Below are positions 19,791 through 23,977 of a stretch of DNA of 24,949 nt, in pieces. Numbering within the stretch: position 1 is the stretch's first letter; the number at the start of each line of letters is the position of its first letter. The notes under the pieces are model-generated. The model saw only the letters and a list, made by a program, of their open reading frames with translations. It was not told the origin of the DNA and did not search any database. The stretch lies in IMG/VR virus record IMGVR_UViG_3300022187_000019; one strand, written 5' to 3'. The position numbers and the translations under genes are program-made. Source of the DNA: a virus (Duplodnaviria; Heunggongvirae; Uroviricota; Caudoviricetes).

Positions 19791-19813
19791 TCATAGCCAG
19801 TGTAATTTTTCTC

Positions 19814-19842
19814 TTGACATCCAGTCAAGTTTCAATTATCAT
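19814..19842 (+). promoter_or_regulatory. Promoter of tRNA operon 1
   Basis: TTGACA-N17-TATCAT; CTTGAC-N5-GTCAAG palindrome. Confidence 0.8.
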
Positions 19843-19891
19843 TCGGACTTCAACAGCGGTTCTCCGCTTTTCAGGATTTCACGAGCTTCCC

Positions 19892-19984
19892 ATGCGCAAC
19901 ATTCCCGCCATCAACATGATCGCAGCGCCGGCCAATATGGTCCCGGCCGTGATTGCGTGCGCGCTCCCGACGAAGGACGACTGA
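19892..19984 (+). CDS. Putative 30-aa attenuator leader peptide of tRNA operon 1
   Basis: MRNIPAINMIAAPANMVPAVIACALPTKDD*. Codons 3-22 encode only N/I/P/A/M/V. Confidence 0.72.
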   Translation: MRNIPAINMIAAPANMVPAVIACALPTKDD

Positions 19985-20016
19985 CCCGGTCGTCTCGTCT
20001 CATAAGGGATTTTTCG

Positions 20017-20048
20017 AAAGGGTCGCGAAAGCGGCCCTTTTTCGTTTC
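20017..20048 (+). terminator. Intrinsic terminator (attenuator) between the leader and the first tRNA
   Basis: AAAGGGTCGC-GAAA-GCGGCCCTTT followed by TTCGTTTC. Confidence 0.85.
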
Positions 20049-20123
20049 TCGGTGTAGCTCAGTTGGTAGAGCGCCTGCTTTGGGAGCAGGAAGTCGTCGG
20101 TTCGATCCCGGCCACCTTGACCA
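20048..20123 (+). tRNA. tRNA-Pro(TGG)
   Basis: Cloverleaf, loop TTTGGGA, encoded CCA, two acceptor-stem mismatches. Confidence 0.9.
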
Positions 20124-20129
20124 TTTCAT

Positions 20130-20206
20130 CTAGCTGTAGCGCAGTCTGGTAGCGTGTGCCCCTCGGACGGGTGAGGTCGCAGGTTCAAATCCTGCCAGCT
20201 AGACCA
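20130..20206 (+). tRNA. tRNA-Pro(CGG)
   Basis: Cloverleaf, loop CTCGGAC (A37), C1:G72, CCA. Confidence 0.88.
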
Positions 20207-20213
20207 GTTTCAT

Positions 20214-20284
20214 AGCAGTGGATCAGTTCGGGGCGGGCCTCATAAGCCTGCTACCCAGAGGCGCACATCCTCTCACTGCTACCA
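20214..20284 (+). tRNA. Atypical tRNA-Met(CAT)
   Basis: AGCAGTG/CACTGCT acceptor, loop CTCATAA, CCA. D arm is degenerate and the T loop is CGCACAT. Confidence 0.7.
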
Positions 20285-20294
20285 GTTTCAACAT

Positions 20295-20369
20295 GCTCGA
20301 TTAGCTTAATGGTAGAGCGCTGGTTTCACATGCCGGAGGCCGGAGGATCAGTCCCTCCATCGAGCACCA
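20295..20369 (+). tRNA. tRNA-Val(CAC)
   Basis: Cloverleaf, loop TTCACAT, T loop ATCAGTC, CCA. Confidence 0.85.
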
Positions 20370-20378
20370 ACCGAATAT

Positions 20379-20454
20379 GCTTCGTTAGCTCAGTTGGTAG
20401 AGCATCCGTATGACATGCGGAAGGCCGTAGGGTCAGGACCTACACGAAGCACCA
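20379..20454 (+). tRNA. tRNA-Val(GAC)
   Basis: Cloverleaf, loop ATGACAT, T loop GTCAGGA, CCA. Confidence 0.85.
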
Positions 20455-20458
20455 GTTT

Positions 20459-20560
20459 TGGGTCTGCTCGGGACAACATTGGCGAGCAGAGGCAACCGGG
20501 AGATAACCTTGACCCTTACGCACGCTTCGGCGGCGGAGTAGGGAACCTTCCGACCCTCAG
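20459..20560 (+). ncRNA. Unidentified ~100-nt structured non-tRNA element inside the tRNA array
   Basis: GGGTC/GACCC closing stem, TCTGCTCG/CGAGCAGA hairpin, and a UUCG-capped hairpin. Confidence 0.5.
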
Positions 20561-20566
20561 ATTTAT

Positions 20567-20642
20567 GGGGCAGTAGCTCACTTGGGAGAGCGTCGGCTTT
20601 GCACCCCGGAGGTAGAGGGTTCGATCCCCTCCTGTTCCACCA
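20567..20642 (+). tRNA. tRNA-Ala(TGC)
   Basis: G3:U70, loop TTTGCAC, CCA. Confidence 0.92.
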
Positions 20643-20649
20643 GTTTCAT

Positions 20650-20727
20650 TGGCGTATAGTCTTCTAGGTGAAGGCGCTCGGCTGTTAACCGAGATTGAGG
20701 CTGGTTCGAATCCAGCTACGCCAGCCA
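20650..20727 (+). tRNA. tRNA-Asn(GTT)
   Basis: Cloverleaf, loop CTGTTAA, G73, CCA. Confidence 0.92.
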
Positions 20728-20736
20728 TTTGGTTGA

Positions 20737-20810
20737 TGTTCTGTAGCACAACGGTAGTGCATCCGACTGATAATCGGCAGATGGAAGTTCGATTCTTCCC
20801 AGAACAACCA
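20737..20810 (+). tRNA. tRNA-Ile(GAT)
   Basis: Cloverleaf, loop CTGATAA, CCA. Confidence 0.92.
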
Positions 20811-23736: not shown

Positions 23737-23799
23737 ATGGAACGCTTCGGATTCAAACGAGATCGCCGGGAACGCGGCGAACGAGGTTTTAGCCTCTAA
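23737..23799 (+). CDS. Putative 20-aa leader peptide of tRNA operon 2
   Basis: MERFGFKRDRRERGERGFSL*. The upstream module is paralogous to that of leader 1. Confidence 0.65.
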   Translation: MERFGFKRDRRERGERGFSL

Positions 23800-23835
23800 T
23801 CCGGTAGTGCTCCTAGCTATCGGTGCTGTTTTAGC

Positions 23836-23911
23836 GGATCGATAGCTCAGTAGGTAGAGCGGCGGATTCTTACTCCGCAGGTGCTGGGTTCAAGCCCCAG
23901 TCGATCCTCCA
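23836..23911 (+). tRNA. tRNA-Lys(CTT)
   Basis: Cloverleaf, loop TTCTTAC, unusual U73, CCA. Confidence 0.88.
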
Positions 23912-23930
23912 AATCAGCATCGATATTTAG

Positions 23931-23964
23931 ACGCCCTACCGCCCCCGGTGGGGCGTTTTTCGTT
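23931..23964 (+). terminator. Intrinsic terminator after the first tRNA of operon 2
   Basis: ACGCCCTACCG-CCCC-CGGTGGGGCGT followed by TTTTCGTT. Confidence 0.75.
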
Positions 23965-23977
23965 GTTCCCGGTCTTT

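What the first reader, a model, noticed from the sequence alone, without database searches (positions are those of the whole stretch)
19969..20048. Proposed switch: the leader stop codon sits in a hairpin loop complementary to the terminator 5' arm
Seen: GACGA..GACGAC (19969-19981) pairs with GTCGTC.TCGTC (19989-19999). The 7-nt loop UGACCCG contains the leader UGA. UGACCC (19982-19987) can pair with GGGUCG (20020-20025) in the terminator's 5' arm. Inference: a ribosome stalled on codons 3-22 leaves the loop free to capture the terminator arm (pseudoknot antiterminator). A ribosome reaching UGA masks the loop, so the terminator forms.
Basis: partly seen in the sequence, partly recalled or inferred. 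Interest (0 to 1): 0.75.

Follow-up and report, generated by a model that had tools for sequence, protein, structure and literature searches.

The report
Stop-codon hairpin in phage tRNA attenuator
The hairpin carrying the stop codon of a 30-codon "test gene" in front of a phage tRNA gene block is real and conserved, and it belongs to a ribosome-sensing transcription switch; whether its loop grabs the terminator, as first proposed, is plausible but unproven.

Summary
Bases 19969-19999 form an 11-bp hairpin. The leader stop codon UGA (19982-84) lies in its loop. UGACCC can pair with GGGUCG (20020-25) in the terminator's 5' arm. One correction: the minimum-energy fold closes the loop to a 3-nt ACC, and opening it to 7 nt costs about 3 kcal/mol.

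The setting is a leader-peptide attenuator of a tRNA operon in a large sphingomonad phage. Leader codons 3-22 are all Asn, Ile, Pro, Ala, Met or Val, and the tRNAs behind the terminator are Pro, Pro, Met-like, Val, Val, Ala, Asn and Ile.

I found nine sequence variants of this leader. In all nine the stop codon overlaps the apical loop of a hairpin. In seven relatives this hairpin caps a strong nested antiterminator (-18 to -25 kcal/mol), and four of them have loops of only 3 nt, so no pseudoknot is needed there.

In this phage and its closest relative the nested antiterminator is only chance-level. Here the loop-arm match is the only unusual complement (P about 0.01-0.04). The two other lineages with large loops also match their own terminator arm (combined P about 0.002, post hoc).

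Verdict: the hairpin and the ribosome logic are supported. The pseudoknot stays a live candidate, about 40%.

This scan has noted leader-peptide attenuators of phage tRNA genes before, on other DNA. I found no publication describing them.

The parts
19814..19842 (+). Sigma-70-type promoter TTGACA-17-TATCAT of the leader and tRNA operon; the start site is inferred near 19849
   Evidence: 11 of 12 consensus matches. The same TTGACA promoter stands at the same place in all relatives.
19855..19868 (+). 5'-UTR stem-loop (AGCGG-UUCU-CCGCU)
   Evidence: Present in every fold. Relatives have a stem at the same place with different sequences, for example ACCGGG/CCCGGC.
19892..19984 (+). Leader ORF of 30 codons plus UGA. 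Codons 3-22 are all Asn, Ile, Pro, Ala, Met or Val.
   Evidence: The downstream tRNAs are Pro UGG, Pro CGG, Val CAC, Val GAC, Ala UGC, Asn GUU and Ile GAU.
19918..19954 (+). Hairpin B inside the ORF, including the nucleotide block conserved across the family. In relatives its 3' half is the 5' strand of the antiterminator.
   Evidence: Folds (-18.7 kcal/mol). Base changes in L033 keep the pairing (C21-G51 to U-G, G22-U50 to G-C). The block pairs with the terminator arm in the consensus folds.
19960..19968 (+). CGCG-CU-CCC, a candidate nested antiterminator strand. It is a near-copy of the top of the terminator's 3' arm (GCG-G-CCC).
   Evidence: It pairs with 20020-22 and 20024-27 in the minimum-energy fold of transcripts ending at 20030. 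ddG is -4.9 kcal/mol, but that is chance level in shuffles (153 of 300; duplex P = 0.14).
19969..19999 (+). Hairpin A, the reported feature: 5 + 6 bp with an AG bulge. It can be extended by CCC 19966-68 pairing with GGG 20006-08.
   Evidence: Two compensatory pairs in L033.
19982..19988 (+). Loop UGACCCG holding the stop codon. GACCC is complementary to GGGUC in the terminator's 5' arm.
20010..20014 (+). U5 run directly after the extended hairpin A; possibly a hairpin-dependent pause site (inference only)
   Evidence: Read from the sequence. It is U4 in L033 and absent in the other seven variants.
20016..20047 (+). Intrinsic terminator: 5' arm 20016-26, GAAA loop 20027-30, 3' arm 20031-41, U-rich tail to 20047. 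The G+C core stem is only 7 bp (20020-26 with 20031-37).
   Evidence: Energy is -17.8 kcal/mol overall and -13.1 for the core, against -18.8 to -22.1 for the core stems of relatives.
20048..20810 (+). Regulated tRNA array. The first tRNA (Pro UGG) begins 6 nt after the terminator stem, so there is no room for a separate promoter.

Best explanation
Hairpin 19969-19999 is the conserved apical 'stop-codon hairpin' of a leader-peptide (ribosome-mediated) transcription attenuator. The attenuator gates a phage tRNA operon.

Shown:
- A promoter, a 30-codon ORF written in the codons that the downstream tRNAs read, the hairpin, an intrinsic terminator, and then the tRNAs with no promoter in between.
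- The stop codon lies in the hairpin loop in all nine variants of the leader.

Inferred mechanism:
- A ribosome that reads quickly to UGA unwinds the hairpin and everything 5' of it. It covers about 19967-19996, so nothing competes with the terminator and transcription stops before the tRNAs.
- A ribosome stalled on Asn/Ile/Pro/Ala/Met/Val codons leaves the hairpin folded. The hairpin domain then captures the core of the terminator's 5' arm (GGGUCGC) before the 3' arm is transcribed, and RNA polymerase reads into the tRNA genes.

In seven relatives the capture is made by a long nested helix that encloses the hairpin. In this phage that helix has decayed and the terminator core is only 7 bp. 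Capture must therefore be made by a short element.
For: Operon anatomy and codon/tRNA match. The same logic holds in module 2 and in a third module beyond the window, each matched to its own tRNAs.

Hairpin is real: z = -2.7, two compensatory pairs in L033, and the stop codon overlaps the apical loop in 9 of 9 variants with 7 different stems.

Nested antiterminator in relatives: minimum-energy folds; a 22-pair consensus with compensatory changes; ddG -17.6 to -25.0 kcal/mol with 0-2 of 300 shuffles as good.

Window clade: the nested option is weak, -4.9 and -1.3 kcal/mol, at chance level. The two best partners of the 5' arm anywhere upstream are 19959-74 (-14.1) and the hairpin apex 19978-93 (-13.8). 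Loop-arm match P is 0.009-0.04. The large loops of L021/L025 and L079 also match their own arms, P 0.008-0.06 each. The terminator core is only -13.1 kcal/mol.
Against: At equilibrium the terminator wins for every ribosome position, so any switch must be kinetic, and that cannot be shown by folding.

In this phage neither capture element is strong. The pseudoknot gains about -2 to -3 kcal/mol by a Dirks-Pierce-type estimate. The nested helix gains -4.9.

Only two sequences of the window clade exist, and they are identical in the loop, the arm and the CGCG-CCC strand.

The Shine-Dalgarno-like AGGA lies 15 nt before the AUG, which is a long spacing.
Confidence: 0.65

Rival explanations
1. The loop of hairpin A (GACCC, just 3' of the stop codon) pairs with GGGUC of the nascent terminator 5' arm. 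This forms an H-type pseudoknot in which the stop codon is loop 1, and this is THE antiterminator. A ribosome at UGA masks it.
For: Five Watson-Crick pairs plus one G-U pair. P is 0.009-0.04. It would cover 6 of the 7 core bases of the arm. The strong nested antiterminator is lost in this clade, while hairpin A is much longer here (11 bp against 4-6 bp). In L021/L025 (ACGGC with GCCGU) and L079 (GCCCU with GGGGC) the loop bases after the stop codon also match their own arm and directly abut the 3' strand of the stem; L021's loop fits L079's arm poorly (-4.1 against -7.8). Fisher's method on three P values (0.031, 0.063, 0.013), combined by hand, gives about 0.002.
Against: The minimum-energy fold closes the loop to 3 nt, at a cost of 3.1 kcal/mol to reopen. 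The net estimated gain is about -2 to -3 kcal/mol. Four lineages have triloops made only of the stop codon and cannot form it. The helix ends in a U-G pair next to the terminator loop, so the 3' arm could displace it easily (inference). There is no covariation within the clade. The statistics are post hoc.
Confidence: 0.4
2. A classical nested antiterminator, as in the relatives. CGCG-CU-CCC (19960-68), which is the last sense codons just 5' of hairpin A, pairs with GGG-U-CGCG (20020-27) and stacks on hairpin A. The loop complementarity is incidental.
For: It is the minimum-energy fold of every transcript that starts at or before 19960 and ends at 20030. It has 7 G-C pairs and is a near-copy of the top of the 3' arm. 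It also covers C24-G27, so the terminator cannot nucleate. It has the same topology as the strong helix of seven relatives.
Against: ddG is only -4.9 kcal/mol here and -1.3 in L033, no better than shuffled upstream sequence (153 and 277 of 300). Duplex P is 0.14. It would be masked by ribosomes stalled at codon 19 or later, although matched codons run to codon 22. CCC is already paired with GGG 20006-08 before 20020-22 is made.
Confidence: 0.35
3. A decayed switch. In this phage the terminator was replaced and no effective antiterminator remains. The terminator is simply leaky or constitutive, or it is overcome by a trans factor. The hairpin and the leader composition are inherited features, kept for pausing or RNA stability.
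For: All candidate antiterminators are weak. The terminator forms in more than 90% of the ensemble at every ribosome position. Lacusarx, a related phage, has no such leader before its tRNA array.
Against: The leader keeps 20 of 20 matched codons, and the hairpin keeps compensatory changes between the window and L033. The loop-arm match is unlikely by chance. Modules 2 and 3 of the same phage keep matched leaders.
Confidence: 0.2

Closest known systems
Leader-peptide transcription attenuators of amino-acid operons (trpL, hisL, and the multivalent ilvGMEDA/ilvBN and thr leaders of enterobacteria; textbook knowledge, Yanofsky model)
   Same: A short ORF rich in regulatory codons, an intrinsic terminator and competing RNA pairings selected by ribosome position. 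In trp, too, the leader stop codon lies in the loop between segments 1 and 2 (my own knowledge). Like the ilv leaders, it is multivalent, covering several amino acids.
   Different: The regulated genes are tRNAs, not biosynthetic enzymes, and the element is viral. The stop-codon hairpin is the apex of the antiterminator domain, not the 1:2 anti-antiterminator. In this phage no strong nested antiterminator is detectable. There is no Rfam match.
Leader-peptide attenuators in front of tRNA blocks of other large phages, noted earlier by this scan (for example e1-4038560, e1-4047519, e1-5429194; module 2 of this phage is e1-5398294). These are AI notes, not publications.
   Same: Same design principle: leader codons mirror the downstream tRNAs, with a terminator and an antiterminator.
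   Different: Those notes describe clear nested antiterminators. Here the nested helix is at chance level, and a loop-to-arm pseudoknot is the only unusual complement. Modules 2 and 3 of this phage place a tRNA between the leader and the terminator; module 1 does not.
H-type pseudoknot switches in transcriptional riboswitches (for example preQ1-I or SAM-II class; my own knowledge)
   Same: A hairpin loop pairs with a downstream strand and so decides whether a terminator forms.
   Different: Those are stabilised by a ligand. Here the proposed gate is a ribosome sitting on the stop codon that forms loop 1. No such leader-peptide pseudoknot antiterminator is known to me or was found in the literature searches.

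Membership tests
Leader-peptide (ribosome-mediated) transcription attenuator | Short translatable ORF in the 5' leader, enriched in codons that report on the regulated product | tested here: met
   ORF 19892-19984. Codons 3-22 are all Asn, Ile, Pro, Ala, Met or Val. The downstream tRNAs are Pro x2, Val x2, Ala, Asn and Ile, plus a CAU-anticodon tRNA-like gene. The first AUG after the inferred start site is used. The AGGA lies 15 nt upstream, a long spacing.
Leader-peptide (ribosome-mediated) transcription attenuator | Intrinsic terminator between the leader ORF and the first regulated gene, with no promoter in between | tested here: met
   Stem 20016-41 plus a U tract. The tRNA-Pro gene starts at 20048.
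Leader-peptide (ribosome-mediated) transcription attenuator | Antiterminator pairing that uses the terminator's 5' arm and depends on ribosome position | tested here: inconclusive
   Met in seven relatives. In the window only weak candidates exist: the nested helix at -4.9 kcal/mol (chance level), and the loop pseudoknot at about -2 to -3 kcal/mol, though its complementarity is unusual.
Leader-peptide (ribosome-mediated) transcription attenuator | Read-through rises when the cognate charged tRNAs are scarce | not testable with these tools
H-type pseudoknot | Hairpin-loop bases complementary to a downstream single strand | tested here: met
   UGACCC (19982-87) with GGGUCG (20020-25); duplex energy -10.0 kcal/mol.
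H-type pseudoknot | Connecting loops long enough to span the two stems | tested here: met
   From the coordinates: L1 = U19982 (1 nt across a 5-bp stem 2), L2 = G19988, L3 = 20000-20019 (20 nt along an 11-bp stem 1). This is compatible with the usual rules for H-type pseudoknots (my own knowledge). No 3D model was made.
H-type pseudoknot | Stem 2 supported by covariation | tested here: inconclusive
   The loop and arm are identical in the window and L033. Across lineages, the large loops differ in step with their own arms, but four lineages have 3-nt loops.
H-type pseudoknot | Thermodynamically favoured over nested alternatives | tested here: inconclusive
   Rough estimates are -29.6 to -31.0 kcal/mol for the pseudoknot, -32.6 for the nested helix and -27.7 with the arm free. 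No pseudoknot-aware folding program was available.
Curated RNA families (Rfam 15) | Match to a known leader or attenuator model | tested here: not met
   Only tRNAs pass the gathering threshold. Nothing relevant appears at E up to 10 in 19800-20060.

The most novel reading that the evidence does not exclude
A ribosome-gated H-type pseudoknot is the antiterminator of a leader-peptide attenuator. The leader's stop codon forms loop 1, and the bases right after it capture the terminator's 5' arm. A terminating ribosome sits exactly on the switch. This geometry would have evolved in at least two lineages of phage tRNA-operon attenuators, replacing or backing up the nested helix.
Probability: 0.35. 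Interest if true: 0.75.

Novelty: new variant of a known kind. Interest (0 to 1): 0.6.

Why it matters
Phage tRNA genes are usually treated as constitutive cargo. Here their transcription appears to be wired to a sensor of how well ribosomes decode the very codons those tRNAs read. That would be a feedback loop a phage could use when host tRNAs are depleted or cleaved.

I found no publication on leader-peptide control of tRNA genes, although this scan has noted the design in many phages.

This locus adds two points:
- The leader stop codon sits at the apex of the switch hairpin across all nine variants, which suggests a design rule.
- This is a natural case in which the classical nested antiterminator has decayed and a short loop-to-arm contact may have taken over. 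That would be a new switch geometry, and it is easy to test by mutation.

Tried and rejected
- An exact search for the terminator in IMG/VR gave four unrelated loci with the same generic GNRA terminator.
- Searches with a longer conserved-block pattern and with the window-clade 5' UTR found nothing.
- A genome-contig scan gave 40 chance hits and no leader. No prophage or bacterial copy was found.
- Lacusarx has the tRNA array but no matching leader. No leader match was found in Citromicrobium phage RXM (best E 0.16).
- Equilibrium folding with ribosome masks did not discriminate: the terminator always forms.
- A his-type six-segment cascade (B 3' strand with A 5' strand, then A 3' strand with terminator 5' arm) was rejected. 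The A 3' strand and the terminator 5' arm are alike, not complementary, and the 2:3 pairing is only 4 bp (read).
- The family-conserved P1 pairing (UGGUCC with GGGUCG) exists in the window but has three G-U pairs, a duplex energy of -2.4 kcal/mol, and a ddG of +1.0 kcal/mol when forced.
- Ribosome shielding of the terminator in the pyrBI manner was rejected, because the stop codon is 31 nt upstream of the stem.
- The extended hairpin A plus the U5 run as a first terminator was rejected. It has only a 3-bp clamp after a 6-nt bulge and was not called by the scan. It might be a pause site.
- The 5' UTR pairing with the spacer and arm that appears in whole-transcript folds was not pursued. It is rich in G-U pairs and would be occupied by initiating ribosomes.
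- No pseudoknot-aware folding program was available.

Full report
**1. What is there**

The window comes from a 151-kb phage genome. It is related to Erythrobacter phages XM05 and vB_EliS-L02 (DNA polymerase 83% and 81% identical) and to Sphingobium phage Lacusarx (66%).

The layout around the finding is as follows.
- A near-consensus promoter lies at 19814-42.
- A 30-codon ORF runs from 19892 to 19984.
- The reported hairpin is at 19969-99.
- An intrinsic terminator lies at 20016-41 with a U tract.
- Six bases later the first of a run of tRNA genes begins: Pro UGG, Pro CGG, Val CAC, Val GAC, Ala UGC, Asn GUU and Ile GAU.
- A CAU-anticodon tRNA-like gene lies between them. The tRNA callers miss it, but it is conserved in relatives.

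Leader codons 3-22 encode only Asn, Ile, Pro, Ala, Met and Val. A second leader in the window and a third one just beyond it mirror their own tRNA blocks in the same way. This is therefore a leader-peptide attenuator of a tRNA operon. No Rfam family matches.

**2. The observation**

- RNAfold closes two more pairs, U82-G88 and G83-C87, which leaves a triloop.
- Reopening the loop costs 3.1 kcal/mol.
- The hairpin folds better than 198 of 200 shuffles.
- UGACCC is complementary to GGGUCG at 20020-25. Those are six of the seven bases of the terminator's G+C core arm.

**3. Relatives**

One conserved nucleotide block inside the ORF served as a search pattern. It recovered the same leader in XM05, vB_EliS-L02, several IMG/VR contigs and several metagenome contigs. 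That gives nine distinct variants. None was found in bacterial genomes.

The nearest relative, L028 (identical to L033), differs in the outer stem of the hairpin by two fully compensatory changes. The spacer after the hairpin has diverged freely.

In all nine variants the stop codon overlaps the apical loop of a hairpin. Seven unrelated stem sequences do this. The hairpin and the position of the stop codon are therefore selected features.

**4. How the relatives switch**

When the transcript ends before the terminator's 3' arm, seven variants fold into one long stem-loop. Its 5' strand is the conserved ORF block (codons 16-23). Its 3' strand is the spacer plus 12-13 of the 13-14 bases of the terminator's 5' arm. 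Its apex is the stop-codon hairpin.
- RNAalifold finds 22 consensus pairs, some of them compensatory.
- Pairing the arm gains 17.6 to 25.0 kcal/mol. Only 0-2 of 300 shuffles of the 5' strand do as well.

This is a classical nested antiterminator. A ribosome stalled on codons 2 to about 12 leaves it intact. A ribosome that reads to the stop codon at the apex has unzipped its whole 5' strand. Four of these variants have loops of three bases, which is the stop codon alone, so they cannot form a loop-to-arm contact.

**5. This phage is different**

In the window and in L033 the terminator is shorter, with a core of 7 bp (-13.1 kcal/mol against -18.8 to -22.1). The hairpin is much longer, at 11 bp against 4-6 bp.

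The nested antiterminator is not detectable above chance. The ddG values are -4.9 and -1.3 kcal/mol, and 153 and 277 of 300 shuffles do as well.

The family-conserved P1 pairing survives only as three G-U pairs and three G-C pairs. Forcing it does not pay.

A scan of the whole upstream transcript found the two best partners of the 5' arm:
- CGCG-CU-CCC at 19960-68, with a duplex energy of -14.1 kcal/mol.
- The hairpin apex at 19978-93, with -13.8 kcal/mol.

The first is the nested minimum-energy solution. It is a near-copy of the top of the 3' arm, but a match that good is expected in 14% of shuffles.

The loop match is rarer:
- P = 0.009 for random loops.
- P = 0.018 with the stop codon held fixed.
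- P = 0.02-0.03 against real k-mers from the same transcripts.
- P = 0.04 by run length.

**6.

The only other variants with large loops are L021/L025 (AAACGGC or AACGGC) and L079 (UAAGCCCU).
- In both, the loop bases after the stop codon are complementary to their own terminator arm: ACGGC with GCCGU, and GCCCU with GGGGC.
- In both, these bases directly abut the 3' strand of the stem, which is the classical H-type geometry.
- The P values are 0.008-0.06 each.
- The loop of L021 fits the arm of L079 poorly (-4.1 against -7.8 kcal/mol).

Combining three independent loops gives P of about 0.002. This test is post hoc and rests on few sequences. In those variants the strong nested helix also exists, so the contact could only matter for ribosomes stalled late, on the nested 5' strand.

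**7. Energetics**

With the pseudoknot penalties of Dirks and Pierce (values from my own knowledge) added to ViennaRNA terms, the window pseudoknot comes to about -29.6 to -31.0 kcal/mol. The nested helix scores -32.6 and the free-arm state -27.7. The differences lie within model error.

At equilibrium the terminator forms at every ribosome position in all variants. The same is true of trp-type attenuators, so the decision must be kinetic.

Both candidates are disabled by a ribosome at UGA, whose footprint is about 19967-96. Only the loop stays available to a ribosome stalled at codons 19-22.

**8. Verdict**

The hairpin is real and conserved, and the ribosome logic fits. The pseudoknot is feasible, statistically unusual and, in this clade, not made redundant by a strong nested helix. 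It is nevertheless weak, it is dispensable in four lineages, and it is untested.

My estimates are about 40% for the pseudoknot, 35% for the nested CGCG-CCC helix and 20-25% for a switch that has decayed.

I found no paper on leader-peptide control of tRNA genes. Earlier notes of this scan describe the same kind of attenuator in many other phages and in module 2 of this one.

Noticed in passing
about 230-310 nt beyond the window's 3' end (positions 87291-87371 of the reverse complement of G000:C1): A third leader module. A TTGACA-17-TATACT promoter is followed by a 26-codon ORF (MFTTTALHQLTLTQLHWQSQYCSSSL). The ORF mirrors the tRNAs that follow: Ser, Leu x3, Thr, His, Gln x2, Ser, Cys and Trp. 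Its UAA also lies in a hairpin loop (UCCC-UCUAA-GGGA). The GGGA is shared with the next hairpin (GGGAGCGG with CCGCUCCC). As in module 2, the terminator comes after the first tRNA.
   Followed up: partly
window 19873-19891, and the same place in L005, L006, L010, L021, L025, L052 and L079: The only Shine-Dalgarno-like motif (AGGA) lies 15 nt before the leader AUG. Together with the following U-rich stretch it is conserved in all nine variants. The spacing is unusually long and unexplained.
   Followed up: no
window about 20211-20284: A tRNA-like gene with a CUCAUAA anticodon loop (CAU, so Met or Ile2) and a CCA end. ARAGORN and Rfam do not call it, but it is conserved in XM05 and in five IMG/VR contigs (pattern search). 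It would supply the Met codons of the leader.
   Followed up: partly
window 20455-20566: A stretch of about 110 nt between tRNA-Val GAC and tRNA-Ala with no tRNA call and no Rfam match.
   Followed up: no
window 20006-20014: GGG pairs with CCC 19966-68 to extend hairpin A, and a U5 run follows directly. This looks like a hairpin-dependent pause signal that could hold RNA polymerase until the ribosome arrives. The run is U4 in L033 and absent in the other clades.
   Followed up: no
window 19882-19891 with 20006-20016: In whole-transcript folds, the bases just upstream of the leader AUG (CGAG..UCCC) pair with the spacer (GGGA..UUCG). This closes the entire leader ORF into one domain. Its significance was not tested.
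   Followed up: no
L014 1199-1506 (Sphingobium phage Lacusarx): Lacusarx has a promoter and about 280 nt of structured, apparently untranslated RNA in front of its Pro/Val/Ala/Asn/Ile tRNA block, in place of the leader ORF.
   Followed up: no
window 23738-23965: The module 2 leader (MERFGFKRDRRERGERGFSL) is followed first by tRNA-Lys CUU and only then by a terminator (about 23930-23965). Its stop codon lies just after a hairpin, not in the loop.
   Followed up: no
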